This document shows, piece by piece, positions 2,274 through 20,968 of a stretch of 52,397 nt of DNA (within the stretch, counting starts at the first letter, position 1; every line of letters begins with the position of its first letter). The notes beneath the pieces are model-generated. The model had not been told where the DNA came from. It did no database searches and was given only the letters and a program-made list of their open reading frames with translations. Source of the stretch: a virus (taxonomy: Duplodnaviria > Heunggongvirae > Uroviricota > Caudoviricetes). Made by a program: the position numbers and the translations under genes. The DNA lies in IMG/VR virus record IMGVR_UViG_2690316086_000018. One strand, given 5' to 3'.

Positions 2274-2753
2274 TTAGATAGACATTTTCCTGCTCTTCTG
2301 GCTTGATGGTTCGAACTCTGACGAGATACGAGATAGTTGCTCAAGACTCTGTTCAATTGAACGCTGGAACTCCATAGCGGCTTCTGTGCGTTGTTTTATG
2401 ACTAAGGCTACTATTTCTTCATCACTCTTTTCTGAAATGGCCTTACGGTATAACACGCGTTCGTTAAATAAATCGAGATTACCAGTTGATCTCGCTGATG
2501 TGTTAGCTTTTGAACTGCTGATAGGATTTAACTCGTCAATAAAGTATTCAATAAGAGATCCTCTCTTTTTTTCAAGTCTGCGAAGTTCGGTATGTGCAGA
2601 CTTAAATTTTTGAGCCTTAACCAATGGAATGTCATCGGAACGCAGTTTGCGATATTCATTTCTGTATTCTTCTATAGAAATATGATTTTTTAGTTCTTTG
2701 ACTGTATTTACGTATTCGATTAAATCACTGTTGTCTGTTTTTACTTTTCTCAT
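2274..2753 (-). CDS. hypothetical coiled-coil protein
   Basis: 159-aa ORF immediately downstream of rep on minus strand. Confidence 0.4.
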   Translation of the reverse strand: MRKVKTDNSDLIEYVNTVKELKNHISIEEYRNEYRKLRSDDIPLVKAQKFKSAHTELRRLEKKRGSLIEYFIDELNPISSSKANTSARSTGNLDLFNERVLYRKAISEKSDEEIVALVIKQRTEAAMEFQRSIEQSLEQLSRISSEFEPSSQKSRKMSI

Positions 2754-2842
2754 AAGAAATACCTCGTAGATAAAATAGGGGATATGTTTATATTACGATA
2801 TATGGTGTAAGTGTCAAATGGCCTAATATATAGGCAAAAGTT

Positions 2843-3550
2843 TTATATGTTTTCTTCTTCATCAAACTCATCTTCTTGAGAATAATCATCAAATATGTTG
2901 TCTTCTGAAAAAGAGTCCCAATCAATATCCTCATCGGGTGTGGAAAGCAAAGGTTTATCATCTTCTTTATTGATTGATTTCTCTTCGTGGTTTTTAAATA
3001 TCCTATCTTTATAAACGGTGACGAATACGTCCTCGATGCCTTCACTGGTTGTTCTCAGCGACTTCTGAACATATTCTTTCCTTATTGGATTTAATGTTCT
3101 GTATTGGCCTTTCAGGAATAGATTGGCGTTTATTAAAGTGTGTTTACCGTCTTGAATAAGAATGCCTTTATTGATAAGTTTTTTCCAGCATTTGCACACA
3201 TTAGATTTGCTCATACCAAGCTCTTCTGCGAGTGCTGACTGAGATATACTGGCTATCAGATTCCCATGCTGCATGAGTTTACACAAACGGATCATTATTG
3301 TGTATTCAGCACCAGACATATTTTTACCAAGCTTTTCCAGATTATCGACAAAAGCATGAACATAGGCTATTCCCGGCTGTATATCCGAACTTCGTTCCTT
3401 TTTAATATTGACGGTTATTTTATCTTTTCGGTTTCTGTTATAAAAACTGTAAATCTCTAGTTTCTGTTTATCGGTAAAATCATTTTTGTTGATATAATCT
3501 TCCAATTGTTCACTACTTGAGGTCATTATTGTGTTGTAATCAATGCTCAT
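2843..3550 (-). CDS. putative iteron-binding replication initiator (winged-HTH, acidic C-terminal tail)
   Basis: 235-aa ORF with HTH-like segment ISQSALAEELGMSKSNVCKCWKKLINKGIL; AT-rich region and iteron array immediately upstream. Confidence 0.45.
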   Translation of the reverse strand: MSIDYNTIMTSSSEQLEDYINKNDFTDKQKLEIYSFYNRNRKDKITVNIKKERSSDIQPGIAYVHAFVDNLEKLGKNMSGAEYTIMIRLCKLMQHGNLIASISQSALAEELGMSKSNVCKCWKKLINKGILIQDGKHTLINANLFLKGQYRTLNPIRKEYVQKSLRTTSEGIEDVFVTVYKDRIFKNHEEKSINKEDDKPLLSTPDEDIDWDSFSEDNIFDDYSQEDEFDEEENI

Positions 3551-3689
3551 GGTTTTTCCTTTTATTATTATTGTTGTTTTTTATATATAATGCAGTATGT
3601 GCTTTTGTCAAAAATAAATGTGAAAAAAAGAAAAATAATACACTTTTGCGAAATAGCGTCCACTGCTTGCTTGCGGATTTTAACTATTG

Positions 3690-3790
3690 AAAGTTTCCAC
3701 GGAAGAAACTTTGGTTTCTGTACAGGAAACTTCGGTTTCCATAGAAGAAACTTAAATTTCCGTACAGGAAACTTTTTCCGTAAAATCTCC
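3690..3790. repeat. iteron-like array, ~4 direct repeats of ~21-22 bp (GAAACTTnnnnTTTCCGTACAG-like)
   Basis: direct repeats visible: ggaagaaactttggtttctgtaca / ggaaacttcggtttccataga / agaaacttaaatttccgtaca / ggaaactttttccgtaaaatc. Confidence 0.55.
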
Positions 3791-3915
3791 TTTAAAAATA
3801 ATGGTTTATGCTTCCTTAATACTATAATATGTTTAATAACTTTAACGTGGAGTGTGCCGGATAAATGGCACCGTTTGGTTTTTTTATTATTTTTACTTTA
3901 TGTTATGAACAGCCA

Positions 3916-3947
3916 GTGATTGTTTTGCACAATCACGAAATGCTGCT
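3916..3947. repeat. partial third copy of palindrome-containing repeat (GTGATTG..CAATCAC..GAARTGCTGCT)
   Basis: gtgattgttttgcacaatcacgaaatgctgct matches the core of the repeats at 4015 and 4516. Confidence 0.5.
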
Positions 3948-4014
3948 TTTATTGTGAGAGCTTATTTAAGATTTCTTTTACTTTATATGCGTCTTCGATG
4001 CGATCTTTTTTGGA

Positions 4015-4150
4015 TAAATCCATCATTAACAGGGGCAAGCCCTGTCCAACAAAGTGATTGGTGTGAACAATCACGAAGTGCTGCTACTAAATATATAGTT
4101 TTCCTATGTGTTTAAGAGCAAATGCTATATGTCAGAGGGGAAATGCTATG
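4015..4150. repeat. ~135-bp direct repeat copy A with two internal hairpins
   Basis: ~90 percent identical to 4516-4650; contains CAGGG-gcaag-CCCTG and GTGATTG-n7-CAATCAC inverted repeats. Confidence 0.65.
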
Positions 4151-4515
4151 TTCGAACATAGGATCTGATGTTAACTTGATAGAGTGAATAGTGAGATTAA
4201 GATCATGTTGTTTTCCATTGATAAAATAGTAATAACTTATAAGTGAACAAGAAAAATAGTTTTATACCAGTATCAGGGGCGTAGCCGTGCGCCAGCACAA
4301 TGTATATATTTTCAAAAAAAATAATTGAATGTATCAGGTAAGAATAAATATCAATAAATATAAGTAATAGTGTTCTATAAGCTGTTAATAAACCGCACAG
4401 GAAGCTTGCTAAGACGTTGGAAGCAGGAAGATGACACATATAACCATCTTCATACTTAAAACGCTTATAATTGATTACAGGCAGTAATTTATATGGAAAA
4501 AATCATTAATTGAAA

Positions 4516-4650
4516 AATCCATCATTAACAGGAACAAGCCCTGTCCAGCAAAGTGATTGTTGGCAACAATCACGAAGTGCTGCTACTAAAGATATAGTTT
4601 TCCTATACATTTAAGAGCAAATGCTATATGTCAGAGATGAAATGCTATTT
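4516..4650. repeat. ~135-bp direct repeat copy B
   Basis: near-identical to 4015-4150. Confidence 0.65.
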
Positions 4651-4748
4651 TTAATTATTTAGTGTTATGAAAAACTAGATCCTGTTTATATCCGCTTGGT
4701 TTCAGCACTCACACAGATGTGTGAAGAAACTATAAAATCACAGATGTT

Positions 4749-4795
4749 ATAAAATATCATAAATATCATAAATATCATAAATATCATAAATATTT
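4749..4795. repeat. tandem 9-bp repeat (ATCATAAAT) x4 plus partial copy
   Basis: atcataaatatcataaatatcataaatatcataaat read directly; ~80 bp upstream of operon start. Confidence 0.75.
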
Positions 4796-4873
4796 TTGAT
4801 ATTACGACTGGTTGCATGGTATTAAATAAAAATAATAACAAAAATCTACTTGGCTACAGCTTTGACAGGAAAC

Positions 4874-5227
4874 ATGGATAAACACTATATCCCTGTTTTA
4901 CAGGATTTAAGAAGAGTGATATACAGCGACAGAATGTTATCAAGGCTTGCAGATAGCGGCAATATTGTTATCCATAGTTCAGTTGGGTATCCGGTTGCTA
5001 AATACAAAAACACGGGGATTAGCATAGGTATAGAACCATTGAATCCAATGATAAGACAAGATCTGACTCTTGGATATATAGTGGTCGTCAGAAACGGGAA
5101 AACATCACAGGAGATTAATGGTTTACTTAACAGGTCATTGCCAAAAGCAATAAGCACTTTTAAGGATCACATCAATGAATATGAAGCAGTAAAAAGTAAA
5201 ATGCGACAACAAACTATGATCTGGTAA
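4874..5227 (+). CDS. hypothetical protein (first gene of unknown operon)
   Basis: ATG at 4874 preceded by AGGAA; track ORF begins at TTG 4850. Confidence 0.4.
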   Translation: MDKHYIPVLQDLRRVIYSDRMLSRLADSGNIVIHSSVGYPVAKYKNTGISIGIEPLNPMIRQDLTLGYIVVVRNGKTSQEINGLLNRSLPKAISTFKDHINEYEAVKSKMRQQTMIW

Positions 5228-9826: not shown

Positions 9827-10795
9827 ATGAAGGATAGAATAAAAATAACAATCCCGTTCTCAGAAGAGAATAAAGCTTTCCTTGAGTTTGTTGATGCTTG
9901 GGATCAAATAATTCCAACATGCTATTTTGTCGATATATGTTGTGTTGGTAATATAAAAAATAGCGCTAAATATCTTCTCGAAGAAAATGTAGGTACGAAA
10001 AAATTTTATTTTATAAAATCATTAGAGAGAATAGACCTAAAGCATAACACAATTTCATATTTCCCAGCCTTGATGGAAAAAGTAAGTGATTTTTATAATG
10101 ATAAACCAATTCAGAGATTGAGAGAAGAAGCTAAAGAAGACCTTAATGCGCTGCGATGTTTTTTCAAAAATGTTAGAGTTATGGAGGATACTGATTTTAC
10201 TAACATGTATATTGAAGGTATGAAGTCTCATCACCCTGAAGTTGATGGTGAAAAATATCATCAATTTCTCTCCTTTATTAATGAAAGTGGAATAATCGAC
10301 CCTGTTTCTCCTGACGAAAGATTAGATTTTGTAAGGTTATTCTGTGAACAAGCAAATAGATTGACTCTTGATAAAAGAAGTGTTGTATTTGTTTCGTCTG
10401 TAGCTTGTATTTATGGATGTTTACCTGCAAGAAGATTAATGAAATTCAAACGAGATCCGACTAAATTCAATAGTAGTAACGTGTTGGCAGATTTGCAATC
10501 GGTAAGTCGAGTTGCTAGGTTGTCATCTGAAATCGAATGCACTGGAAGGTCTGCTTTCGCTAGATTCTCATATCTGACTGAGGATAATAACCTTAAAATA
10601 TTATCTGATTGTTTTTTTGTAAGGAATGTCGAGAGAGAAACTATACCAAATGGTATATCTAATAAACTAACTACAACCATAGATGGAAAAAGATTGTTTC
10701 CGGCTCTTTTCAATAGTGATGGTTATTTAATTAATGAGAAAGCAGAACAGGAGTTCAATGAACTATTAACGCTGTTAGGAGTCGATGTACCATAA
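9827..10795 (+). CDS. hypothetical protein, 322 aa
   Basis: AT-rich ORF with aagga RBS; convergent with AbiGi-like gene. Confidence 0.45.
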   Translation: MKDRIKITIPFSEENKAFLEFVDAWDQIIPTCYFVDICCVGNIKNSAKYLLEENVGTKKFYFIKSLERIDLKHNTISYFPALMEKVSDFYNDKPIQRLREEAKEDLNALRCFFKNVRVMEDTDFTNMYIEGMKSHHPEVDGEKYHQFLSFINESGIIDPVSPDERLDFVRLFCEQANRLTLDKRSVVFVSSVACIYGCLPARRLMKFKRDPTKFNSSNVLADLQSVSRVARLSSEIECTGRSAFARFSYLTEDNNLKILSDCFFVRNVERETIPNGISNKLTTTIDGKRLFPALFNSDGYLINEKAEQEFNELLTLLGVDVP

Positions 10796-10848
10796 ATTGA
10801 GAATGTGCTATATAAAAATAACTCTCTTAGCTGATTATGATATATTCT

Positions 10849-10886
10849 ATAGCCTTGTTTTATACTATGCCAAGGCTATATTTATT
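10849..10886. terminator. hairpin between convergent genes
   Basis: atagccttg ... caaggctat inverted repeat followed by A/T-rich run. Confidence 0.35.
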
Positions 10887-10891
10887 AATAA

Positions 10892-11656
10892 TTATAGATC
10901 ATCATTGTTCTGGGAAGAATAGAAAATTTTACTTATTAATTCGTTGCTGACCTCTAGGCCTTTCTTATCAAGATTTTTAATGAATGAACTTAATTGGCTT
11001 TTGTTTTTTAGTATTATATAGTTAATGTCATTTATCCCAAAATCAAGATGAATACTATTTATTTTATCATTATATTCATTCTTTTTTTCAGTGCTTTTTA
11101 TTTTACTGAGTAATGCTATTGGTATTATCCCCTCTTGGTGGGTAGGAACAAATCGCCACTCCATTTCATCTGCAAAACAATAGTCAATTTCTTTTTTGCC
11201 TTCTCTCGTTAGTGGTCCTGTATGATTCTTCATATAACGGAGTATATTTATCAAAGACTGATAATCATTATTTTTGGAATATTCATTCGCAATATCTTTA
11301 TCGTTCTTGAATTTTCTAATCTGCTGATCAAGTAAGGTGAATACATCCGAATATCTACTCATGTATAATACAGGGTTTAAATTGTTTTTTGAGGCCCAGT
11401 CGTCATTAAGACCAATTCCATAATGTCCATACTTCTTTGTATGTTCAGATAACAAAGATAGCCTGATATTACAAAAGGAAACCATTGGTATTCCAAAACG
11501 TCGAGCTACACCATCTTTATTATATATGGTCTCTCTGGCATATGAGGGCCGAAAATATCCATCAGTTAAAATTGATTCCAGCTTGGATTTTTTATCCGTA
11601 AAGTGTAAAAATGTTTTTGGATATAGACTTTTAGTCAATTTCATGAGCCTCGTCAA
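10892..11656 (-). CDS. possible AbiGi-like abortive-infection protein
   Basis: 254-aa ORF; N-terminal FLHFT...LESIL, IPMVSFCNI and YGHYGIGL motifs resemble the AbiGi family as I remember it; not verified by search. Confidence 0.4.
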   Translation of the reverse strand: MTRLMKLTKSLYPKTFLHFTDKKSKLESILTDGYFRPSYARETIYNKDGVARRFGIPMVSFCNIRLSLLSEHTKKYGHYGIGLNDDWASKNNLNPVLYMSRYSDVFTLLDQQIRKFKNDKDIANEYSKNNDYQSLINILRYMKNHTGPLTREGKKEIDYCFADEMEWRFVPTHQEGIIPIALLSKIKSTEKKNEYNDKINSIHLDFGINDINYIILKNKSQLSSFIKNLDKKGLEVSNELISKIFYSSQNNDDL

Positions 11657-11772
11657 TTAATAATATGAAATATTATATATCAAAATAGTTGCTAAAGGAA
11701 CTCATGACTTTGTTAATGATAATAACATCACTTTTCCCACAGGGTAATCATGGCATCCTTGTGCTTCCATAG

Positions 11773-12465
11773 TTATTTAAATCTTGAATTTGGCTGTTTT
11801 GATTTTTGTGATTGTTTACTACTATGTTCAAACAACATTAATGGTGTCACTTCTATATTGCTATCGGTAGAATTCTCTCCCTTACGAGGACGACTTGGGA
11901 AACGAACGGTCTTGTCATTATCTGATACGTTTCCACAGAAGTCTGCTTCTGATGATTTTTGGTCATTGTTAAATTTAGCTCGTTTTTCAAACTCTGAACG
12001 TGGAACATTGACACCCAACACTTCATCAAAGATATAGTTTTCTGCGATACGCTTATCATGATCAGCATCAGTGGTATCGGGCTTCCTTCTGGCCCATACG
12101 AATCTCTCTCTTATATATCCTACCACCAGTAGTGTGAAACGCTTAAACAAACTACTCTGACGCGGCTTAATCTGTTTCCTACTACTCATGGGAGCACGGT
12201 TCATCACTTTGGTGTTTTGAAGAGATGGGGTTTTCAATTTAGTGGATGCATTTGGTTCAGGAACAACCAGAACAGGGGATTTCTTCCCTGAAACATTTAC
12301 TTTACTGACCTTATTAGGATCACGGTAAGATTTTGCTGCTGGTCTTCTGCTTGTAGTTGCTGTTGCCACAATCGGCTGCTGTTCTTCTACTGTCGGGAAG
12401 TCAGGGATAACAATCTCTTCGGGTTCAGCAAGATGTGTAATCGTAAAGCTTCTGACATCAACCAC
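11773..12465 (-). CDS. hypothetical basic low-complexity protein (GTG start) just downstream of reconstructed mobA end
   Basis: 230-aa K/P/S/T-rich ORF; starts at GTG. Confidence 0.3.
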   Translation of the reverse strand: MVDVRSFTITHLAEPEEIVIPDFPTVEEQQPIVATATTSRRPAAKSYRDPNKVSKVNVSGKKSPVLVVPEPNASTKLKTPSLQNTKVMNRAPMSSRKQIKPRQSSLFKRFTLLVVGYIRERFVWARRKPDTTDADHDKRIAENYIFDEVLGVNVPRSEFEKRAKFNNDQKSSEADFCGNVSDNDKTVRFPSRPRKGENSTDSNIEVTPLMLFEHSSKQSQKSKQPNSRFK

Positions 12466-12515
12466 GATCTCAAGTGGTAGCTCACTGAATGTGGTGTATA
12501 TAGCGCGGCGATTTT

Positions 12516-12581
12516 TTTGATACCGATTTGCATTTCATTTGATACCGCTGAAAAACGCCGATACGCAACTTATTTGATACT
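12516..12581. repeat. prophage-end repeats, three direct copies of TTTGATAC(C/T) (putative transposase-binding sites, mom end)
   Basis: copies at 12516, 12538, 12573; same motif in inverted orientation at the other prophage end. Confidence 0.5.
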
Positions 12582-12626
12582 AAATCGGCGCTTTTCTTTT
12601 GAGTTTTAGAATGAGTTTTTAAGCGC

Positions 12627-13364
12627 TCATTCACTCTCTTTCAAACCAGTTTTAACTGTTTGTGGTTTTGGGTAAGGCTGGACTTTGAATAGCTTTGTGT
12701 TGAGGCGTTTTCTGGCCCTCTTGTTCAGAAACCGGATGTAACGAAACTGTCGGAACTTATGCACACTGGCTCTGTCGATATTAGCCCTCAGATGTTCACC
12801 TCGTTGTCCGCCTCGTTTAATGGCACTCCTGCAAATCTCGTGATACCACTCGCCATCAAGTTCATAGAATGTTGATTCATGGCTGCCTACATAATCAAAA
12901 TTGCTTGCCTGATACACGACACCAAGACAGCCACAACGCTCATCTGCAAACGACTGAACCCACTGTACCTGCGGATAAAGCTGCCTGATTAGCTTGAGCG
13001 CGTAACTGATTGCCCTTGATTCGGAGTTTCTCGGCATACAGTCATGCATCCATAGCCGGTTAAGCTCCATATATTCTCGGTTCTGCGTACCCGTTACGAC
13101 GCGTGCACCACTGTTTGGGTTAAGGGCGTAACCCCATTGCATTACGCCAACAAGTTCCCGTTCTGAAAATATACCCAGATGAAGGTAGGAATTATTTACG
13201 AAACGGTGGCTGTAATGTTTATTGACGATAACCAGTCTGGCCAGCCAGCAACTTATTGTCTCAACCCGCAACTCACGGGAGCCATAACCAACGATATTGT
13301 CGTTATAGCGAATAAGTTCAGGCGTGCTGATGATACGGGATGTGACTTGCTTTCTGTTCCCCAC
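12627..13364 (-). CDS. mom: Mom-like DNA modification protein
   Basis: 245-aa ORF overlapping the 3' end of a Com-like gene, last gene before prophage end, GATC cluster upstream: the Mu com-mom arrangement. Confidence 0.6.
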
Positions 13365-13518
13365 GACAGGATTTCCTTGTGTATGTGGGGTGCTCTGTGG
13401 CGCTCGGAGATGTGATTTGATTGAGGGTTTTACAGCGCGGACATTTTACTTCCAGATAACTGAAACTGGCCCGTGCCAGTAGCTTATTGCAGTGTCGGCA
13501 CCGTATGTTTCGATACAT
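13318..13518 (-). CDS. com: Com-like zinc-finger translational activator of mom
   Basis: [15 protein letters not shown]...EVKCPRCK...EHPT closely matches remembered Mu Com; start taken at internal ATG. Confidence 0.7.
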
Positions 13519-13565
13519 GGCCGCATAACCTCCTGCTTTGTTGTTGATGCCTTTCTCATGCAATC

Positions 13566-13703
13566 GATCGACAAAAACGATCGATTCGATTTGTTTAATT
13601 GATACAACAAATAGATTTAAAAGTCATCAACAATGATTCAGGGCGGTGATTATTTACTTAAAGAAACGAAGAGTTAGGTGGTGAAAACGATCATAAAATG
13701 ATC
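13566..13703. promoter_or_regulatory. GATC cluster upstream of com-mom (probable Dam-dependent regulatory region)
   Basis: GATC at 13566, 13579, 13689, 13700 embedded in ATCGATCG-type motifs. Confidence 0.5.
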
Positions 13704-13924
13704 ATTTTATTGACTTTTTATACAGTGAAGGTAGGATCGCGCGTATATGTAGTATGTTTCAAATCAACAGGATACTACATAAAAGGGAAACCCAGCATAG
13801 CTGGAACTATGCTGGGTCAATCTGTAAAAACTTGCATCAATGCTTTACTTCGAGCTCGTGGCGTATCCTATGATATTCCCCGGTCTCCTGTAAAGCAGAG
13901 ATGCATAAAAAGGAGATCTTTATC

Positions 13925-14095
13925 ATGGATAAAGAGCCTGTTTGCCCTGCCTGTAAGACTCCCTTACAGCTCATCTATCGCCGTTCTCGATCTCAAAATG
14001 GCAAGACATACAAACCAAAAAATGCTTCCTGTTTCAGGATGCTGATATGTCCTGCCTGTTCTCCCCGGAGGGAAAATACACAAAACGTGCATTAA
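13925..14095 (+). CDS. small zinc-ribbon protein (CPAC...CPAC), possibly Ogr/Delta-like
   Basis: 56-aa ORF with strong aaaaggaga RBS; two CxxC pairs; divergent from com. Confidence 0.3.
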   Translation: MDKEPVCPACKTPLQLIYRRSRSQNGKTYKPKNASCFRMLICPACSPRRENTQNVH

Positions 14096-14133
14096 CAAAT
14101 TCACCCGGCAGGGAAACCTGCCGGTCGGTATTG

Positions 14134-14379
14134 TTACATCATAGTACCGTCAGTTCCGGGCTGAACCGGCTCTGGTTGCTCTACGGGTTGAGGCTCATTT
14201 TCCGTGCTGTTTTCAGCCGGAGAACGACCAACCATTCGGGCCAGCACTTCATCAACATATGCGTCGATTTGTGCCTCAAAATCCTTGCGAACCTGCGCCT
14301 TCAGCACGCGGTTCACTTCTTCAGAATAAAGTGCCTGTTTGACAAGCTCTTCAGTAACCGTGCCTTTAATCTCTGGCAT
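14134..14379 (-). CDS. hypothetical protein
   Basis: 81-aa ORF with aaggag RBS; acidic/Pro-rich C-terminus. Confidence 0.45.
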   Translation of the reverse strand: MPEIKGTVTEELVKQALYSEEVNRVLKAQVRKDFEAQIDAYVDEVLARMVGRSPAENSTENEPQPVEQPEPVQPGTDGTMM

Positions 14380-14414
14380 GAATATTCTCCTTTCCTTTTC
14401 TGGTTCACAAAAAA

Positions 14415-14594
14415 TTAAATCTGACCGGAGTCTTTCGGCTGCGGCATTACAGCACCGCTTTTTATCTTTTCCTCGGCAGCTGCATCAATTTTATTTCGAA
14501 AATAATTGCGAATAATTTTATAACCACCGCTGACAAGCAACAGACAACAAACCACCGTGCAGAAATACAGCAGGCAGACGTTTATATATGTCAT
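14415..14594 (-). CDS. small membrane protein, 59 aa (not in ORF track)
   Basis: hand translation MTYINVCLLYFCTVVCCLLLVSGGYKIIRNYF...; GAGG RBS; one N-terminal TM helix. Confidence 0.3.
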   Translation of the reverse strand: MTYINVCLLYFCTVVCCLLLVSGGYKIIRNYFRNKIDAAAEEKIKSGAVMPQPKDSGQI

Positions 14595-14651
14595 ATAAGC
14601 CTCACTCTTATTAACTGATGTTACAGCCGGATAAATTCCCGGCCGTCACGA

Positions 14652-16709
14652 TTATGCCGCAGGGGTATTAACCTCAAGGACAACGCTCTCAAAAGACACG
14701 CCATAAGTTGCCCCTTTGGTGACATCTGTCAGTGTCAGCGTATCTTTGGCAGGGGAAAGTGCATCTTTCACCATCTGGAATGCCTGGCCCGGAGTGCCAT
14801 CCAGCACAGGCGTTACCTGGGCACTTCCCGCCGTAAACTTCAGGACAAGTGTATGCCACTGGTTATTGTAGGCTCCAAATGATCCCAGTTTCGTATTCCC
14901 CCCTGTTTTATGGTGCATCAGATTTAACTGGCCGCCTGTTGTCTGGAGATAATACGCCATCAGGAACGGTGTGCCTGTACCACTCATGGTTACACCTTCC
15001 GGGACCGTATCGGTGTGGAGGTAAATACCCAGAGCAAACTGGCCTTCTTTTACTTCACCTGACAGACGGAATTTACAGGTCAACTGACCACCATGCTTCA
15101 GAAGTTCACCGGCTGCATCAGTTCCATGGGTAAGCGCCCAGGTTTTTCCGCTTTGTTTGGATACGGTCAACGCTTTACCTTCGTCCGTCAGCTGGATTGT
15201 ACCATCTGTAATTTTCCAGCCCTGAGCCGGGGCTTCTCCTGCTGATGCTTTAAGTGAAAGCAGCGTACGGAGTGACGGGGATGTCGGATGGGGGGACTCA
15301 CTGCCTCCTGGCTGACTACCTGTCGGCGCTTCCGGTTTCCCACCCGGCGCGGGCTGAGGCAGGGCTTCACCATCAGGGGCCACACCGGCAATAAATGCAG
15401 AGGTCAGACCTGCATATTTAAGAATTGCTGATGCAAAACGATCTGAGACCAGAAAACGGCGCGCCCAGGAGCTAAAATGGGTTGCCCTGGATGCTGTTGT
15501 CCAGTTGCCATCTCCCCGTGATTCCGCACCATAATACCCGGCAGAAGCGATATCCGGGTCGTGCTCCGGCAGGTTGGTCGCGGTTTTATTACCGAACTCA
15601 TCGTGCATCAGTGGAACAAAGTGAATGTTCTCGGAAGCCCGGTTTTTATATCCGCTATAAATGGTTTCATATGCCGCCGGGTTCTTCTCTTTCCAGTCAT
15701 AGGTTGTGTCACCACATAACCACGGCACACTGTCTGATGAACCACCAATACACTGACCGGAGAAAGCACCAAGATCCGCACGGAATTTTTTCACCATCGC
15801 AGTAAACTGGGCACCATGCTGGGCCGGGGTCGCTTTAAGGTCTCCTTCCCCCTGAATCCATACGACAGATAACAGCACATTCTTTGGATTCGCCTCAAGT
15901 GCCGCTTTAGTTCGACTGACAAGATCCTGATACAGTGGGGTATCCACTCCCCAGCGTAGTGACGCCTCGGCTGCACCACTTGCCGGATCGAATGAGCCAA
16001 CTGCGCCGGTTGTAAAAGCAGAGCCGCCACGGGCACAGGGAACCAGTAAAATCCCGGCATCAGCAGGAATCACCGGTAATACTTTTTTCGCAATATGAAG
16101 TCCCTGCCCCACACAACCATACTGCCCTTTTTTCAGGTCTGCTTTTGGATGGTTCAGCAGACTCATATTCTGAACATCATGAAGGCAGTGATCTGCTGGA
16201 ATGATTTCATTGTATTTGCAGGGAATACCTCCGGGGGTTTGTGTATTCCTGCGTGCCAGCTGCATAATACGTGGATCAGGACGATCATAAGAATCCGGAA
16301 GGGGCAACCCTTCACCATAAGATGAAGCATTGGACTGGCCGGCTATAACAATCACGTAATACCAGGAAGGGGAGCTGGAAGCCGTTTCATTTCCTGCCGG
16401 ACGGGTATGTGTTTCTGCATTATCCCAGTCTGACGGTTCAGTAGTACCGGCAACATCAGCACTTAACGGAATGACAGCACCAATACCCGCTCCGGTAATT
16501 TCCACGTTCGGATCACCGGATACTGGCCTTACCCACAGGCAATCCTGTGTATTAAAACTGATGAGACAGTCAGCAAATGTCATTCCTCCTTTCGTTTCAG
16601 CAGGAGGAAAGGGAGCCTCAAGAAATGCCGCTGTACCACCGGAAACTTTAACGGTAAAGTTTCCGGGCATTGATGATAGTTGAACCCATTTGGACGTCAT
16701 AATATTCAT
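14652..16709 (-). CDS. SGNH/SASA-type carbohydrate esterase-domain protein with C-terminal beta-sandwich-like domain (prophage cargo gene)
   Basis: 685-aa ORF with VIVIAGQSNASSYGEG (GQSN serine motif of sialate-O-acetylesterase-like SGNH hydrolases); lies between gin and com-mom. Confidence 0.6.
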   Translation of the reverse strand: MNIMTSKWVQLSSMPGNFTVKVSGGTAAFLEAPFPPAETKGGMTFADCLISFNTQDCLWVRPVSGDPNVEITGAGIGAVIPLSADVAGTTEPSDWDNAETHTRPAGNETASSSPSWYYVIVIAGQSNASSYGEGLPLPDSYDRPDPRIMQLARRNTQTPGGIPCKYNEIIPADHCLHDVQNMSLLNHPKADLKKGQYGCVGQGLHIAKKVLPVIPADAGILLVPCARGGSAFTTGAVGSFDPASGAAEASLRWGVDTPLYQDLVSRTKAALEANPKNVLLSVVWIQGEGDLKATPAQHGAQFTAMVKKFRADLGAFSGQCIGGSSDSVPWLCGDTTYDWKEKNPAAYETIYSGYKNRASENIHFVPLMHDEFGNKTATNLPEHDPDIASAGYYGAESRGDGNWTTASRATHFSSWARRFLVSDRFASAILKYAGLTSAFIAGVAPDGEALPQPAPGGKPEAPTGSQPGGSESPHPTSPSLRTLLSLKASAGEAPAQGWKITDGTIQLTDEGKALTVSKQSGKTWALTHGTDAAGELLKHGGQLTCKFRLSGEVKEGQFALGIYLHTDTVPEGVTMSGTGTPFLMAYYLQTTGGQLNLMHHKTGGNTKLGSFGAYNNQWHTLVLKFTAGSAQVTPVLDGTPGQAFQMVKDALSPAKDTLTLTDVTKGATYGVSFESVVLEVNTPAA

Positions 16710-16799
16710 CCTGTTCCTGAATAAACAGAATTATCATATCCACAGACCGATAAACGCCATTTTGCGTTAATTCAGTAAAGGCCCAACAAAGGGAGCGTC

Positions 16800-17360
16800 T
16801 TATTTTTCCGAAACGCTCGCAGGATAATAACGATAAAGGGTTGAAAGGCCGATATCAAAAATAAGTGCCACCTGTCTTCGACTGACACCCCCGGCCAGTA
16901 AACGCCCGACCTGCTCGTATTGTTCCTGCGTGAGACGACGGGGTCTGCCGCCGGTTCGTCCCCTTTCACGGGCAGCTGCAAGACCAGCCCGTGTCCGTTC
17001 GACAATTAATTCACGCTCCATTTCTGCCAGCGCACCCATTATGTGAAAAAAGAAGCGCCCCATGGGGGTTGACGTATCAATGTTGTCAGTAAGACTACGA
17101 AAATTTATCCCCTGTTGCTGTAATTCATCTGTCAGCGCAACAAGGTGGCGCATACTGCGCCCCAGCCTGTCCAGTTTCCAGACCATCAGTGTGTCACCGG
17201 GTTTTAGTTTCTTCAGTGCCCGCTTCAGTCCCGGCCGCTGTGTCGTTTTACCACTCATTTTGTCTTCAAAAATCTGCTCACATCCTGCACATTCCAGCGC
17301 ATTTCTTTGTAAACCGGTGTTCTGGTCATTTGTTGATACGCGTATATAGCCAATCAGCAT
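16800..17360 (-). CDS. gin: Gin-type serine DNA invertase
   Basis: MLIGYIRVSTNDQNTGLQRNAL...DRLGRSM...; near-identical in pattern to Mu Gin/Hin/Cin. Confidence 0.9.
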   Translation of the reverse strand: MLIGYIRVSTNDQNTGLQRNALECAGCEQIFEDKMSGKTTQRPGLKRALKKLKPGDTLMVWKLDRLGRSMRHLVALTDELQQQGINFRSLTDNIDTSTPMGRFFFHIMGALAEMERELIVERTRAGLAAARERGRTGGRPRRLTQEQYEQVGRLLAGGVSRRQVALIFDIGLSTLYRYYPASVSEK

Positions 17361-17414
17361 GTATTTACCTTCCTTAAAAAGAGGTGGAAAGGCCTTTTAA
17401 AGCAGATATACGGC

Positions 17415-17440
17415 ATCCCTGAAACCTCGGTTTACGGGAT
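17415..17440. other. gix-like invertase crossover site (left)
   Basis: ATCCCTGAAACCTCGGTTTACGGGAT; core AAACCTCGGTTTAC matches the Mu gix core. Confidence 0.7.
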
Positions 17441-17785
17441 ACTGTAAACAGGGCCGCGAATGCCCTGCCATCGAACGGAACGGCTGTTGCAGCGAATAAA
17501 CTCGCCACTCCAAGAAATATTAATGGTGTCCCATTTGACGGAACGCAGGATATAAATATTACATCGGGGATGACGCAGTCTGTGGCTGACTCACGTTATG
17601 TTCAAAGCATTCGAAGAGGTTCAAGGTCAACGATTGGAATGCAATATAATATTTTTGAAGTTCCTGACGGATGCGTACTTACAGGGCTTGATGTCGCTGG
17701 TGATGGTAATGCAACGGTAACCGCATATTATCGACCTGTTCAGTTTCTGATAGATGGTTCGTGGAAAACAGCTTCCAGCGCATAA
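17423..17785 (+). CDS. alternative tail-fibre C-terminal segment (promoterless in current orientation)
   Basis: in-frame translation from the gix site gives NLGLRDTVNRAANALPS...RPVQFLIDGSWKTASSA, homologous to residues ~176-303 of fibre 18421-19332. Confidence 0.6.
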   Translation, partial: NLGLRDTVNRAANALPSNGTAVAANKLATPRNINGVPFDGTQDINITSGMTQSVADSRYVQSIRRGSRSTIGMQYNIFEVPDGCVLTGLDVAGDGNATVTAYYRPVQFLIDGSWKTASSA

Positions 17786-17864
17786 AAGTGCAGTAGTTCA
17801 AAAAACAGATTATCTGAATAAATATATGATGATTTTGTCTTTTCAACAAAAACAAGGTGAAATA

Positions 17865-18386
17865 ATGGAGCTTATTAACGTAAAACGATATTACCCGGAA
17901 CACAAACCCTATGGTGAGGATGTTCAGTATTTCCAGAGTGAGGACGGAAGGGATTTTTATGAATCTATCCCGCTTTTCACAAAGAAATACAAACTCTGTA
18001 TTTCGCCTGTAACGGGTATTATCTGCTCTGTTGCTGAAGATGTCTCTGCTTTATATCCGGCAGGTTTTACTGTTGTTGAAGTGGACGAACTGCCGGAAGG
18101 TGTGAATATTGACGGTAACTGGCAGTGTTCTGATGGCCTGATATCAAAGGTGCCGGTAAACTGGAAGACGGTTGCTGAAAAGCGTCGCTCATCGCTGCTC
18201 CAGGAAGCCAACGAAACCGTGGATGACTGGAAAACAGAATTAAAACTGGACATGATTAGCGATGAAAATAAATTACAGCTGACGCGCTGGATGGCGTATA
18301 TCCGACAGCTTAAAGAAATGCACTTTAATGATATTGCCAGTGAGGGGCATTACCAGGCGATTCCCTGGCCGGAAAAACCGGAATAA
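17865..18386 (+). CDS. tail fibre assembly protein (chaperone)
   Basis: MELINVKRYYPE...QLTRWMAYIRQLKEM...WPEKPE typical Tfa family; aaggtga RBS; track ORF starts at 17754. Confidence 0.85.
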   Translation: MELINVKRYYPEHKPYGEDVQYFQSEDGRDFYESIPLFTKKYKLCISPVTGIICSVAEDVSALYPAGFTVVEVDELPEGVNIDGNWQCSDGLISKVPVNWKTVAEKRRSSLLQEANETVDDWKTELKLDMISDENKLQLTRWMAYIRQLKEMHFNDIASEGHYQAIPWPEKPE

Positions 18387-18391
18387 TTCAG

Positions 18392-18415
18392 AGGGTGCAT
18401 TCAGCACCCTTTTCT
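18392..18415 (+). terminator. rho-independent terminator after tfa
   Basis: agggtgc-attca-gcaccct hairpin followed by TTTT. Confidence 0.55.
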
Positions 18416-18420
18416 GTGGT

Positions 18421-19332
18421 TTACACTGAACTTACCGTTCTCCAGGCATTATTAATATAAATCTGAACCGGGCGATAATAGACCCCACCGATATTGTCCG
18501 CAGACCGGGAGCCGGTTTCCTGCACGTTAATACCGGAAAGCATACAACCGGAAGGTGCGCTGTAATTCCATGATATTTCATTGCCTCCGGGTGAATGATA
18601 GCTCTGTGCTCCAAGCTGAACATTCTGTACATACCGGCCATCTGCGGTTGACTGCGTCATTCCTGACGTGATGTTGATATCCTGCGTTCCGTCAAAAGGA
18701 ACGCCATTAATATTTCTTGGGGTGGCGAGTCTGTTTGCTGCCACGGCGGTTCCACCCGATGGCAGGGCATCAGCAGCCTTATTTACCGTTTCCCGTAAAC
18801 CGACGTTATCGATAAAAGCGCCTTTATCCGGAATGTCTGCGCCGTTCTGCTCCCTGCGCAGGTAACGGTTATCACCTTCGCTTTTGCTGTAAACATCCAG
18901 ATTATTACGGGCGGTTCCCGCATTCTCCAGGTCGGCAAGGTTCTGATCCTTCGCCAGAGCATTAACGTCACCGGGACCAAGACTGTTTTTTGTGGCAAGC
19001 GCCCCAAGACCAAGATAACCACGGGCAAGACGCTGGGCTTCCGCACCGGCATCAGCAATTTCTTTCAGGTTGTTTTTCCGGGAAAAGGCATTCGCAGCGA
19101 TAATGGCTTTAATGGACAGCGTAAGCTGGTTTAACTGCGCCTTATCCGGCTGAATACTGGCTTCAGCCAGAATATTCAGCAGTTCGGCCTGGAGAATATT
19201 CAGCCAGTCCTGACCAATCCAGCTGATACCTTTTTGTCCGTCACCTTCGGTAAACCAGGTGGTGGTATTACTCTGCGCCGGTGCCAGCGCAGGCATATTC
19301 GCCACGCCGGAATTATTATCAACATGAAACAT
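18421..19332 (-). CDS. tail fibre protein (constant N-part plus currently attached variable C-part)
   Basis: 303 aa; gix site inside the gene at codons ~176-184 (IDNVGLRETV). Confidence 0.8.
   Translation of the reverse strand: MFHVDNNSGVANMPALAPAQSNTTTWFTEGDGQKGISWIGQDWLNILQAELLNILAEASIQPDKAQLNQLTLSIKAIIAANAFSRKNNLKEIADAGAEAQRLARGYLGLGALATKNSLGPGDVNALAKDQNLADLENAGTARNNLDVYSKSEGDNRYLRREQNGADIPDKGAFIDNVGLRETVNKAADALPSGGTAVAANRLATPRNINGVPFDGTQDINITSGMTQSTADGRYVQNVQLGAQSYHSPGGNEISWNYSAPSGCMLSGINVQETGSRSADNIGGVYYRPVQIYINNAWRTVSSV
18790..18815. other. gix-like invertase crossover site (right, inside tail-fibre gene)
   Basis: TTCCCGTAAACCGACGTTATCGATAA, ~22/26 identical to remembered Mu gix TTCCTGTAAACCGAGGTTTTGGATAA. 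Confidence 0.75.
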
Positions 19333-19892
19333 TAAATAGTCTCCTCTTCATGGCTGTTTGCATACACGTAAATAAACGTCTGCCATGCAGGCTTATAACG
19401 GTTCAGAATACATTCCAGCGCACCGCCTTCATAAATACGCAGCGGCGTGAGAATATCATCCAGCACATTCATATTCCGGTAGCCGGTTTCACTGTTAATC
19501 GTGACAATACTGACCCACTGTGAATCCGGTGATGGCTGAATATCTATTTCATAACCAAACTCTGCCGCAAACCGGATATAAAATTCACGGTTAAGAGAGG
19601 GTTTCATCCGGTATTTATTCCCGGCATAACGCTGACGCTCCTGAATTGTTGCGCCGGTCATATCACATTCCGGTAACCCCAGATAACGCTCCCAGTCTTC
19701 CAGCAGCAGACGGGATGAATCAGGAAAACGTTCTGCCAGCATCTGGTTACCGGTCCAGGAAACACGCTCCGTGGAATGACTGAGGCCCAGGCACAAAGCC
19801 GCAAGAACGGATGACGGCCGCTTATCCCATGCCAGCCCGTCAGGCAGCAACTGCAACAGGGCACGCTGATGCGGGGTCAGGGTTACAGCCAT
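19332..19892 (-). CDS. Mu gp48-like tail/baseplate protein
   Basis: position between baseplate J-like and fibre genes; 186 aa. Confidence 0.6.
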   Translation of the reverse strand: MAVTLTPHQRALLQLLPDGLAWDKRPSSVLAALCLGLSHSTERVSWTGNQMLAERFPDSSRLLLEDWERYLGLPECDMTGATIQERQRYAGNKYRMKPSLNREFYIRFAAEFGYEIDIQPSPDSQWVSIVTINSETGYRNMNVLDDILTPLRIYEGGALECILNRYKPAWQTFIYVYANSHEEETI

Positions 19893-20968
19893 GTGATTTC
19901 CCCCACGGTCAGCAACTCTGTATCTCCGGCCATCACGGACTTCAGCGGGCTGCGAACTTCAAAATCCTCCAGTCCTTTCACCCCTGCAACAGCCCGCCAG
20001 AATGATGAAGGCAATACAAGTCCACCCGGCCGCGATTCGTTATAAAGCAGGTCCGTTAATGCCTGTTTTACGGCAGCCTGATTTTCCGGCGTTTTGGGTA
20101 CAATCCTGATCTCAAACGCCACCGGCTTATTGGTCAGCTTAAACACGCTGATTGTCGGCCCAAGTGGCTGACCAACGGGCTGGCCCGTCGCCGGATCATC
20201 ATGACTGCGGATATAATCCGCCACCCGCTTCACATCACCTTCTCCGGGGAAAATGTCAGGGTTATTATCCTGAACAAAAGTCACACCAACACTACCCGCC
20301 TCAGGCCATTCAGGCTTACACCATGCCCGCGTCACGCCCGGTACTTCCCGTGCCCAGCGTTCAAAATCATACTGTGTTCCCCCTGATGGCGGGTTCTGTA
20401 CCCGGAATACCAGCCTGGACAGCAACTCCGGCACCGTTTCCACATCCGCACCACCGGTGAGTCCCGTGCCGGTGACCGTGGCTGTCTGGTTGATGCCCGC
20501 CTGTGGCGTGATAAAGGACAGGCGGGTTCCGGTCGGGGTATTTCCAGCGCGCCCCGCACTTTCCGCCTCCACATTAACATTCAGTGTTCCGGCTTTTCCG
20601 GTCGCAGAGCCGGTGATGCGGTACACAACACCATCGCTTCGCTGAAGGAGTACGCCTTCCGTGATCCCTGCATCCGTGGTCAGCATCAGTTGTACCGGTC
20701 CGTCAGCGCGGGAAGCCGGTTTACGGATGACACCCCAGAATGCGCAGTGTTTCAGGAGTTCGGCTTCATCAGCTTCTGTCGGAATTATCTGCCGGGAGAT
20801 CCAGGCCAGATGTTCATGCTCCTGTGCTGACAGACCCGCCAGTGCATACGCAATGGCATTCAGGGTGGTTTCATTCACGCCCGGCTGCGAACCGGGCAGG
20901 CGCTGGCTGATATCCTGTTGTGTCTGTGTGATCAGTTGCGCCAGTGGTAAGGGCTGATAAGGCATCAT
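19883..20968 (-). CDS. baseplate J-like protein (Mu gp47-like)
   Basis: 361 aa; order in baseplate module. Confidence 0.7.
   Translation of the reverse strand: MMPYQPLPLAQLITQTQQDISQRLPGSQPGVNETTLNAIAYALAGLSAQEHEHLAWISRQIIPTEADEAELLKHCAFWGVIRKPASRADGPVQLMLTTDAGITEGVLLQRSDGVVYRITGSATGKAGTLNVNVEAESAGRAGNTPTGTRLSFITPQAGINQTATVTGTGLTGGADVETVPELLSRLVFRVQNPPSGGTQYDFERWAREVPGVTRAWCKPEWPEAGSVGVTFVQDNNPDIFPGEGDVKRVADYIRSHDDPATGQPVGQPLGPTISVFKLTNKPVAFEIRIVPKTPENQAAVKQALTDLLYNESRPGGLVLPSSFWRAVAGVKGLEDFEVRSPLKSVMAGDTELLTVGEITWL

What the first reader, a model, noticed from the sequence alone, without database searches (positions are those of the whole stretch)
2843..3790. Putative iteron-type replicon
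A wHTH protein gene is preceded by an AT-rich stretch and about four 21-22 bp direct repeats, the classic iteron oriV layout. This suggests the backbone is a plasmid or a replicative island.
Basis: partly seen in the sequence, partly recalled or inferred. Interest (0 to 1): 0.45.

Follow-up and report, generated by a model that had tools for sequence, protein, structure and literature searches.

The report
Plasmid-type replication cassette inside genomic island
The repeats and the gene are real: together they form a replication module of the kind used by tiny pHW126-type plasmids, sitting as a swappable cassette in a chromosomal ROD21-like mobile island of E. coli, but nobody has shown that it replicates the island.

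Summary
A 235-aa winged-helix protein gene (2843-3550, minus strand) is preceded by an A+T-rich promoter region and four phased 21-bp repeats (3693-3772). Each repeat holds a dyad, GTTTCY-N5-RGAAAC.

The protein is not a classical Rep_3 iteron initiator. It is 28-39% identical to the Rep proteins of about 50 tiny (2.3-3.7 kb) enterobacterial plasmids of the pHW126/pIGRK/pIGMS31 family. In that family the mapped origin includes four 20-bp iteron-like repeats at the same distance upstream of rep.

The backbone is not a plasmid. It is a chromosomal ROD21-like (EARL) integrative mobilizable island with AlpA, an H-NS-like protein, a MobQ relaxase, a TIR protein and an integrase.

Gene, promoter and repeats form a discrete 1.1-kb cassette (2820-3914). 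Sister islands carry other Rep alleles with their own four repeats at this position, including the SEN1990/"RepL" type. Protein and half-sites are under strong purifying selection.

Function is inferred: most likely a conditional replicon of the excised island that also represses its own gene. The main counter-evidence is that deleting the sister allele SEN1990 did not change ROD21 copy number. This is a new member of a known kind, of moderate interest.

The parts
2820..3914 (-). Whole rep-iteron cassette, the unit that is exchanged between sister islands
   Evidence: blastn of the window against a sister E. coli island (L006): the flanks are 96.7% (155-2819) and 86.6% (3915-4654) identical, while 2820-3914 is replaced by a non-homologous segment carrying a different Rep allele with its own four repeats.
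2843..3550 (-). rep gene, 'type A' allele, 235 aa. Predicted N-terminal helical domain (about 5-39), wHTH (about 63-140), short helix, and a disordered acidic/aromatic C-terminal tail (187-235)
   Evidence: ORF. Pfam. 28-39% identity to Rep of pHW126-family plasmids. AlphaFold model with pLDDT 69. dN/dS 0.08-0.12 overall; N-terminal domain 0.05-0.08 and wHTH 0.02-0.05.
3583..3611 (-). Putative rep promoter: -35 TTGACA at 3611-3606 and an A/T-rich -10 region (TATATA) near 3588-3583, with an AAAGGA ribosome-binding site just before the ATG
   Evidence: TTGAC is invariant in 8 type A loci and sits at the same place as the TTGAC -35 of the plasmids. The consensus scanner did not call it, so this is an inferred feature.
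3612..3692 (-). A+T-rich spacer between the promoter and the repeats, with T-tracts and a conserved box GTGRACGCnATTTCGCAAAAGTG (3640-3663). It contains one relaxed DnaA-box-like match (3619-3627)
   Evidence: Composition. Conservation. DnaA-box scan not above chance.
3693..3772 (.). Four iteron-like repeats with a 21-bp period, each holding the dyad GTTTCY-N5-RGAAAC. They lie at -223 to -143 from the rep ATG
   Evidence: The array is conserved in 8 type A loci from E. coli, Klebsiella, Brenneria, Samsonia and metagenomes (50-84% protein identity). Half-site columns are 73% invariant against 20-25% for the centre and spacer columns.
3773..3914 (.). Distal part of the cassette: a short A/T tract next to the repeats, a nearly invariant block (3813-3847, which holds TATAAT on the + strand at 3823-3828), and a hairpin GTGCC-N8-GGCAC (3854-3871) followed by a T-run on the + strand
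   Evidence: Alignment. Terminator-like call. It occupies the position of the plasmids' conserved region and A-tract, but no significant sequence similarity to them was found.

Best explanation
Window 2820-3914 is a replication (REP) cassette of the pHW126/pIGRK/pIGMS31 plasmid type, carried by a chromosomal ROD21-like (EARL) integrative mobilizable island.

Shown by sequence comparison: the 235-aa protein is homologous to the Rep proteins of that plasmid family. The cis layout is the same: four roughly 21-bp iteron-like repeats, each with an internal dyad, lie about 140-225 bp upstream of the start codon and are followed by a T-rich region and a TTGAC promoter. Gene and sites move together as one cassette and are under purifying selection.

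Inferred mechanism: Rep dimers bind the four dyads, which are phased two helical turns apart. As in the plasmids, this complex both represses rep transcription and opens or nicks the adjacent A+T-rich conserved DNA to start replication. The origin would fire only when the island is an excised circle, after induction by a helper element or after conjugative entry. That would keep the circle from being lost before it reintegrates.
For: Homology: tblastn against 72,556 plasmids finds 50 tiny (2.3-3.7 kb) plasmids at 28-39% identity, E down to 6e-16, including pIGRK, pHW126 and pIGMS31. The match to pIGRK covers residues 1-148. It therefore includes the N-terminal part that separates the initiator RepR from the inhibitor RepR' in pIGRK (PMC6854812).

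Architecture: seven plasmids of the family have four palindrome-containing repeats of about 22-bp period at about -215 to -130, preceded by an A-tract and followed by a TTGAC promoter. The window has the same layout at -223 to -143.

Experiments on relatives: the origin of pIGRK is the conserved region plus the four iterons, and Rep is needed in trans (PMC6854812). pIGMS31 RepM binds these regions (bioRxiv 10.1101/2022.12.05.519187).

Co-variation: the sister allele (type C, the SEN1990/'RepL' type, 34% identical) has four different dyads, CTATGTTYRAACATAG, at -207 to -124 in E. coli, Salmonella, Citrobacter, Pectobacterium, Dickeya and others.

Cassette: the flanks are conserved and the module is exchanged. 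Two modules occur in tandem in Pectobacterium. A true RepL-type gene sits in the same slot in E. coli 042, next to a 67-bp scar of the type A gene.

Selection: dN/dS is 0.08-0.12 at dS up to 1.2, and the half-sites are 73% invariant.

Precedent: other integrative mobilizable elements have replicons that fire only with a helper plasmid (SGI1, PMC7433901; PIMEs with repA and four iterons, bioRxiv 10.64898/2026.01.12.698999).
Against: No experiment exists for this allele.

For the sister allele SEN1990 in Salmonella ROD21, deletion changed neither the island-to-chromosome ratio (about 1) nor the amount of excised circle. The authors concluded it is not involved in replication or maintenance and found a transcriptional effect on oafB instead (PMC10655114). 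They noted that only about 3% of cells carry the excised form and that no helper plasmid or post-transfer stage was tested.

The plasmid family's conserved region and ssi hairpin could not be found here by sequence.

The cassette is never seen on a plasmid in 5,426 complete E. coli genomes.

The fold search returns only generic wHTH regulators.

This copy of the island is partly decayed, with integrase pseudogenes inside it and an IS66-family element beside it.
Confidence: 0.5

Rival explanations
1. A domesticated Rep that now works only as a transcription factor. The four dyads would be an operator array for autoregulation, and the protein would also regulate island or host genes. No replication would take place.
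For: Deleting SEN1990 gave no replication phenotype but lowered oafB expression and organ colonisation (PMC10655114). The fold is a MarR/CRP-like wHTH. Palindromic sites are typical of dimeric repressors. Rep proteins of the plasmid relatives are also autorepressors. The cassette is only ever found integrated.
Against: The array lies about 80 bp upstream of the -35 rather than over the promoter, exactly where the plasmid origins have it.

The N-terminal domain, which in pIGRK is needed for initiation and dispensable for repression, is kept under strong purifying selection, with dN/dS 0.05-0.08.

The same slot is filled in other islands by other initiator-type genes, including a true RepL.

No further sites occur in the 52-kb window except one inside the gene.
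Confidence: 0.3
2. A classical theta-type iteron replicon. A Rep_3/RepA-like monomer would bind asymmetric iterons, with DnaA boxes and an A+T-rich unwinding element.
For: There are direct repeats of iteron length, an A+T-rich stretch (22% G+C) and one relaxed DnaA-box match next to it. 2D gels of pIGMS31 show some theta-type intermediates.
Against: No Rep_3 or related family hit. One wHTH rather than two. The repeats are dyads. DnaA boxes are not above chance: 4 found against 4.97 expected, and none matches the consensus TTATCCACA. The plasmid relatives were classed as rolling-circle or mixed (PMC2831885).
Confidence: 0.07
3. An incompatibility or exclusion device. The chromosomal repeats and Rep would titrate or handcuff cognate small plasmids or competing islands, without replicating the island.
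For: The iteron regions of pIGRK and pIGMS31 are incompatibility determinants. Islands diversify the cassette into several specificities. Replicating SGI1 and PIME elements interfere with their helper plasmids (PMC7433901).
Against: No plasmid in PLSDB carries the type A specificity. The nearest plasmid Rep is under 40% identical and has different repeats. A complete, conserved rep gene with its N-terminal domain is not needed for titration.
Confidence: 0.08

Closest known systems
REP modules of pHW126-like small plasmids (pHW126 of Rahnella; pIGRK and pIGMS31 of Klebsiella)
   Same: Homologous single-wHTH Rep without HUH or Rep_trans motifs (28-39% identity, including the N-terminal domain and, for pIGRK and pHW126, an acidic/aromatic C-terminus). 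Four iteron-like repeats of 20-22 bp, each with an internal palindrome, at the same distance upstream of rep. An A/T tract beside them. A T-rich region and a TTGAC promoter between the repeats and the gene. Low G+C.
   Different: The module is chromosomal, inside a roughly 20-kb integrative mobilizable island, not on a 2-3 kb plasmid. The repeat period is 21 rather than 22 bp and the dyad is different. The family's conserved region and ssi hairpin are not recognisable by sequence. The internal GTG that gives pIGRK RepR' is GTT here. No replication data exist.
SEN1990 of Salmonella Enteritidis island ROD21 and its homologues in EARL islands (PMC10655114)
   Same: Same position in the same island family, between the DUF4756 gene and a long non-coding region. 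Same protein family: 34% identical to the E. coli copy that is 98% identical to the Salmonella 'RepL' cluster. The published second group of homologues (Klebsiella, Yersinia, Serratia, Salmonella) probably corresponds to the allele in this window.
   Different: A different allele with a different repeat sequence. The paper compared SEN1990 only with Firmicute RepL proteins. It does not mention the repeats ('iteron' occurs 0 times) or the pHW126 family, and concluded there is no role in replication.
Classical iteron plasmids (pSC101, R6K, F, RK2; Rep_3/TrfA initiators)
   Same: Tandem direct repeats of about two helical turns next to an A+T-rich region and the initiator gene. The initiator also autoregulates. 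The repeats act as incompatibility determinants in the plasmid relatives.
   Different: A different protein family, with one WH domain instead of two. The repeats are dyad-symmetric. There are no convincing DnaA boxes.
RepL family (PF05732; pSN2-type staphylococcal plasmids, phage P1 RepL)
   Same: Weak profile similarity. 19 of 35 family members hit RepL at E<0.01, and pIGRK and the SEN1990-type allele pass the cut-off.
   Different: The window protein scores 16.8 bits, below the 20.3 cut-off. A genuine RepL-annotated gene in the same slot of E. coli 042 shows no BLAST similarity to it.
Helper-triggered replicons of integrative mobilizable elements (SGI1 S004-RepA/oriV; PIME repA-oriV)
   Same: The element type is the same: integrase, AlpA-type regulator, relaxase and no type IV secretion system. 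The replicon is a Rep gene next to four iterons. Those replicons are silent until a helper plasmid induces excision.
   Different: The Rep families are unrelated. No helper or inducer is known here, and no amplification has been shown.

Membership tests
pHW126-like REP module | Rep protein homologous to pHW126 Rep, pIGRK RepR and pIGMS31 RepM (single wHTH, no HUH or Rep_trans motifs) | tested here: met
   tblastn E 6e-16 (pIGRK, residues 1-148, 33.8%), 3e-15 (pHW126) and 1e-13 (pIGMS31). Alignment. No nuclease family hit.
pHW126-like REP module | Four iteron-like direct repeats of about 20 bp upstream of rep | tested here: met
   Four repeats with a 21-bp period at 3693-3772, at -223 to -143. 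The seven plasmids examined have them at about -215 to -130.
pHW126-like REP module | Conserved region (CR, about 20 bp) next to the iterons, characteristic of all members | tested here: inconclusive
   An nhmmer profile of seven plasmid CR regions gave no significant hit at the expected place. The best hit in the window (E 0.06) lies 4005-4039, in a backbone repeat. A different, nearly invariant block occupies the equivalent position in type A loci.
pHW126-like REP module | ssi-like palindrome upstream of the CR (dispensable for replication in the plasmids) | tested here: not met
   The conserved ssi core GWRGGGTTGGCC is absent near rep, and matches in the window are below chance. An unrelated hairpin lies at 3854-3871.
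pHW126-like REP module | Supports autonomous replication, with Rep acting in trans on the repeats | not testable with these tools
   Needs cloning in a conditional-origin vector.
Classical iteron replicon (Rep_3/RepA/TrfA type) | Initiator of the Rep_3 or a related family, with two winged-helix domains | tested here: not met
   No such Pfam or NCBIfam hit. The AlphaFold model has one wHTH. Foldseek against PDB gives only CRP, MarR and ArsR-type matches, none at E<0.001.
Classical iteron replicon (Rep_3/RepA/TrfA type) | DnaA box or boxes beside the iterons | tested here: not met
   TTWTNCACA occurs 4 times in the window against 4.97 expected. The nearby one (3619-3627, TTTTTCACA) is a relaxed match in a T-tract.
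RepL (Pfam PF05732) | Score at or above the curated cut-off (20.3 bits) | tested here: not met
   16.8 bits. Relatives that pass: type C 21.5 and pIGRK 22.1.
ROD21-like (EARL) excisable island | P4-type integrase with AlpA-type directionality factor, MobA/MobL (MOBQ) relaxase, H-NS-like protein; integration at an Asn-tRNA gene | tested here: inconclusive
   The RefSeq annotation of the 99.7%-identical E. coli O103 locus lists AlpA-like HTH, H-NS-like, MobQ relaxase, TIR protein, SEN1982 and SEN1984 lipoproteins, and integrase. No tRNA gene is found in the window. The island is flanked by an IS66-family element and a prophage on one side and by yodB on the other.

The most novel reading that the evidence does not exclude
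ROD21-like islands have a dedicated, hot-swappable 'initiator slot'. It holds at least four interchangeable replication cassettes: types A, B and C of the pHW126 kind, each with its own dyad repeats, and a true RepL. These cassettes would be exchanged with the pool of 2-3 kb cryptic plasmids. The islands would therefore be conditionally replicating elements, and the published conclusion that SEN1990 has nothing to do with replication would reflect the lack of an inducing condition. Swapping specificities would let two islands, or an island and a small plasmid, coexist without incompatibility.
Probability: 0.35. Interest if true: 0.6.

Novelty: new member of a known kind. Interest (0 to 1): 0.42.

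Why it matters
ROD21-like islands carry virulence and defence genes in Salmonella, E. coli, Klebsiella ST258 and plant pathogens. What happens to them after excision is an acknowledged gap. The only study of this gene family compared it with distant Firmicute RepL proteins and dismissed a replication role.

Three findings give a concrete, cheap test of whether these islands replicate when excised, as SGI1 does: the protein belongs to the experimentally studied pHW126 plasmid family, it comes with a conserved four-repeat array, and gene and repeats are swapped as a unit. The test is to clone 1.1 kb into a conditional vector. The findings also link a family of cryptic mini-plasmids to chromosomal islands.

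If the module turns out to be only a regulator, it would be a clear case of a plasmid initiator domesticated together with its binding sites.

Tried and rejected
- Classical Rep_3/RepA identity: no family hit and only one wHTH.
- DnaA boxes: not above chance.
- Plasmid conserved-region profile (nhmmer): only weak, non-significant hits, and none at the expected place.
- Plasmid ssi core: absent.
- Solved structures by sequence: nothing below E about 0.9.
- Phage collection: no DNA or protein match.
- Rfam, at both gathering and E<1 thresholds, on the long non-coding region: nothing.
- Single-strand folding of the 150-nt repeats and of the distal cassette: not clearly better than shuffles, z from -0.6 to -2.1.
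- The hairpin at 3854-3871 is conserved, but its stem is essentially invariant, so there is no covariation to use.
- The 2.7-kb metagenomic contig carrying the most divergent type A allele (L029) is not demonstrably circular and looks like an island fragment. No free plasmid with type A specificity was found.
- The pseudogene next to the type C gene in L006 is not a remnant of the type A gene.
- The internal start that gives the inhibitor RepR' in pIGRK (GTG at V69) is GTT here. An ATG at M78, used by some annotations (158-aa products), could play that role, but this is speculation.
- The type B allele in L010 has only irregularly spaced GGTTATT-N5-AATAAC sites, not a clean four-unit array.

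Full report
**Observation**

The minus-strand ORF 2843-3550 encodes a 235-aa protein. Its only above-threshold Pfam hit is a winged helix-turn-helix (HTH_24). Phage_rep_O (24.8 bits against a cut-off of 28.7) and RepL (16.8 against 20.3) are sub-threshold.

Upstream of the gene, the DNA drops to 22% G+C at 3551-3650. Four repeats then start at 3693, 3714, 3735 and 3756. Each contains the dyad GTTTCY-N5-RGAAAC. The motif occurs 5 times in the window against 0.37 expected, and none of 100 shuffles reached that number. The units alternate in an ABAB pattern, which is why TRF also reports a 42-bp period.

**Where the window comes from**

The region is 99.7% identical to the chromosome of E. coli O103 strain ML775. 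All 1,064 matching places in complete E. coli genomes are chromosomal. The RefSeq annotation of that locus shows, in order:

- an AlpA-type HTH gene, which is the start of the window;
- an H-NS-like gene;
- a DUF4756 gene, then the wHTH gene, then 1.3 kb without genes;
- SEN1982 and SEN1984-family lipoproteins;
- a MobQ relaxase, a TIR-domain protein, integrase fragments and an intact integrase;
- core genes (yodB, zinT).

This is the gene set of the ROD21-like (EARL) excisable, mobilizable islands (PMC6035254). The backbone is an island, not a plasmid.

**What the protein is**

A translated search of 72,556 plasmids finds one near-identical copy, which lies in an island copy inside a 310-kb Klebsiella plasmid. 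It also finds 50 hits at under 60% identity (28-47% among those listed; 28-39% for the longer matches), almost all on 2.3-3.7 kb enterobacterial plasmids. These include pIGRK, pHW126 and pIGMS31, the founding members of the pHW126-like family.

In these plasmids the homologous gene is the only replication gene. Published experiments on them establish the following:

- The pIGRK origin consists of a conserved region plus four 20-bp iteron-like repeats upstream of rep, and Rep acts on it in trans.
- The repeats are incompatibility determinants.
- Rep represses its own gene.
- pIGRK makes an N-terminally truncated inhibitor, RepR'.
- The replication mode is rolling circle or mixed.

The sources are PMC6854812, bioRxiv 10.1101/2022.12.05.519187 and PMC2831885.

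The AlphaFold model (pLDDT 69) shows an N-terminal helical domain, one wHTH and a disordered acidic tail. Foldseek finds only generic wHTH regulators. There is no Rep_3, HUH or Rep_trans signature. The protein is not a classical iteron initiator.

**Same architecture as the plasmids**

I printed the DNA upstream of rep for seven plasmids of the family and for the window. All share three features:

- four repeats of 21-22 bp, each with an internal palindrome, at about -215 to -130 (window: -223 to -143);
- an A/T tract on the distal side of the repeats;
- a T-rich region and a TTGAC -35 hexamer between the repeats and the gene.

The dyad sequence differs from plasmid to plasmid, as expected if each Rep has its own specificity.

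Two plasmid features could not be found here by sequence. These are the conserved region (nhmmer) and the ssi hairpin. Type A loci do have their own nearly invariant block and a hairpin at the equivalent place.

**A cassette, with co-varying sites**

A sister E. coli island (L006) is 96.7% identical to the window up to 2819 and 86.6% identical again from 3915. In between it carries a different allele, annotated RepL, that is 34% identical. That allele has four repeats of its own, CTATGTTYRAACATAG, with a 22-23 bp period at -207 to -124. The same allele and array occur in Salmonella, Citrobacter, Enterobacter, Pectobacterium, Dickeya, Brenneria and others. The E. coli copy is 98% identical to the Salmonella 'RepL' cluster, which includes serovars Enteritidis and Dublin and so is very probably SEN1990.

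The allele in the window ('type A') occurs at 50-84% protein identity in E. coli, Klebsiella, Brenneria, Samsonia and metagenomes. In every case it has the four GTTTCC-N5-GGAAAC sites.

Other arrangements of the same slot:

- A Pectobacterium island carries two modules in tandem.
- In E. coli 042 the slot holds a CoiA-like gene and a true RepL-type gene, next to a 67-bp scar of the type A gene. That scar is present in 114 genomes.

A rough neighbour-joining tree places types A and B with pIGRK and pHW126, and type C with pIGMS31-like plasmids. This suggests more than one exchange between plasmids and islands (no bootstrap support was computed).

Among 5,426 complete E. coli genomes, 66 carry the type A cassette and 181 the type C cassette. 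All copies are chromosomal.

**Selection**

Between the window and its type A relatives, dN/dS is 0.08-0.12 with dS up to about 1.2. By region it is:

- N-terminal domain: 0.05-0.08
- wHTH: 0.02-0.05
- acidic tail: 0.15-0.28

In the non-coding alignment, 73% of half-site columns are invariant, against 20-25% of the central and inter-site columns and 34% overall. Protein and sites are therefore both functional, whatever the function is.

**Most likely mechanism**

I think the cassette is a working or recently working REP module. Rep dimers would bind the four phased dyads. As in the plasmids, this would both repress rep and initiate replication in the adjacent A+T-rich conserved DNA. For an integrated island this only makes sense after excision.

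SGI1 (PMC7433901) and the recently described PIMEs (bioRxiv 10.64898/2026.01.12.698999) have replicons that stay silent until a helper plasmid induces excision. That would explain why no replication is seen under ordinary conditions.

Three points favour an initiator over a mere repressor:

- The array sits where the plasmid origins have it, about 80 bp upstream of the -35, rather than over the promoter.
- The N-terminal domain is retained under strong constraint. In pIGRK this domain distinguishes the initiator from the inhibitor.
- The same slot is filled by other initiator-type genes.

**Counter-evidence**

The only experiment on this gene family (PMC10655114) deleted SEN1990 in Salmonella. 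It found no change in ROD21 copy number (about 1 per chromosome) or in the excised form. It did find lower oafB expression and reduced colonisation.

The authors compared SEN1990 only with Firmicute RepL proteins and did not describe the repeats. They noted the long upstream non-coding region and two groups of homologues. They also stated that a replicating subpopulation (about 3% excised) or a role after conjugation was not excluded.

A purely regulatory, domesticated Rep is therefore a serious rival, and I give it 0.3. Homology and architecture are secure (about 0.85). Present-day replication function is about even odds.

**Novelty**

The plasmid family, the island family and the SEN1990 gene family are all published, and RefSeq already labels some copies 'replication protein'. 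Three things are absent from the searchable literature: the link between them, the four-repeat arrays in the islands, and the cassette exchange. The term pHW126 occurs in 8 papers, none about these islands. 'Iteron' occurs 0 times in the SEN1990 paper. I class this as a new member of a known kind, of moderate interest.

**Dead ends**

See Tried and rejected. In brief:

- No support was found for DnaA boxes, the plasmid conserved region or the ssi core.
- Rfam, the phage collection and solved structures by sequence gave nothing.
- Single-strand folding energies were not clearly better than shuffles.
- A possibly circular metagenomic contig turned out not to be demonstrably circular.
- None of these gave support beyond what is stated above.

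Noticed in passing
window 4146-4161: A perfect copy of the repeat of the other Rep allele (type C, CTATGTTCGAACATAG; 0 expected by chance) sits alone about 600 bp upstream of the type A gene, in backbone DNA shared with type C islands. In those islands a fifth, distal site lies about 730-750 bp (up to about 900 bp) from the four-site array. Type A islands of Brenneria, Samsonia and E. coli EC36 also keep it. It could be a relic of a replaced module or a looping site.
   Followed up: partly
window 4003-4152 and 4502-4651; inverted repeats at 3916-3936, 4054-4074, 4553-4573: Two 150-nt direct repeats (88% identical) and three copies of the element AGCAGCRYTTMG-GTGATTGT-N5-ACAATCAC fill the 1.3-kb gene-free region. 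A second small hairpin (ACAGGG-N5-CCCTGT) and GGATTTATCCAAAAAAG follow the element in the two 150-nt repeats. The element is conserved next to the Rep slot whatever the allele (Salmonella L034, Pectobacterium L010, E. coli 042 L033). No Rfam match. Possible roles are oriT, a single-strand initiation site or another protein's binding site; unexplained.
   Followed up: partly
window 4752-4793: A perfect 9-bp tandem repeat, AAATATCAT x 4.7, in a 17-22% G+C stretch just upstream of ORF 4850-5227. Such a tract could vary in copy number.
   Followed up: no
window 3813-3890 (+ strand): A nearly invariant block contains a perfect TATAAT (3823-3828) with no good -35. It is followed by a terminator-like hairpin (3854-3871) and a T-run. 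This would give a roughly 50-nt transcript divergent from rep. Rep-activated promoters of unknown product lie in the origin of pIGMS31 and pIGRK.
   Followed up: partly
window 3431-3447: A fifth, one-mismatch copy of the dyad (GTTTCTGTTATAAAAAC) lies inside the rep coding region. It is present in close relatives (L032, L007) but not in more distant type A loci, so it is probably chance.
   Followed up: partly
window 3317-3319 (codon M78 of rep): Some database entries start the protein at this internal ATG (158-aa products, 99% identical, labelled MarR family). This would remove the N-terminal domain, like the inhibitor RepR' of pIGRK. However, the GTG used in pIGRK is GTT here.
   Followed up: partly
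window 2822-2888; L033 (E. coli 042): 114 complete E. coli genomes keep only these 67 bp, which are the last 15 codons of the type A gene plus 21 bp. In strain 042 they lie next to a CoiA-like gene, a hypothetical gene and a 189-aa RepL-annotated gene with no BLAST similarity to types A-C. This is a scar of cassette replacement.
   Followed up: partly
L010 2037-4693 (Pectobacterium colocasium): Two Rep modules lie in tandem in one island: type C with its four repeats, and a third allele ('type B', 32% identical to the window protein) with irregular GGTTATT-N5-AATAAC sites.
   Followed up: partly
window 2274-2753: A DUF4756 gene (Pfam E 3e-63) lies directly downstream of the Rep slot in every island examined, whatever the Rep allele. 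It is absent from the small plasmids. Its function is unknown; it may be a partner of the module or just backbone.
   Followed up: no
window 2843-2990 (rep residues 187-235): The Rep C-terminus is a disordered acidic/aromatic tail (…DIDWDSFSEDNIFDDYSQEDEFDEEENI). pIGRK (…EEENFEFGFESEI) and pHW126 Reps end similarly, but the SEN1990-type allele does not. This may be a docking motif for a host replication protein.
   Followed up: no
window about 10,000-19,900: The rest of the island carries an AbiGi-like gene, a MobQ relaxase, a shikimate-kinase-like gene, a TIR-domain gene, two integrase pseudogene fragments, an ATPase/AAA/HNH trio and an intact integrase next to yodB. ARAGORN finds no tRNA gene anywhere in the window, although EARL islands are described as inserting at Asn-tRNA genes. 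The island may be composite or partly decayed.
   Followed up: no
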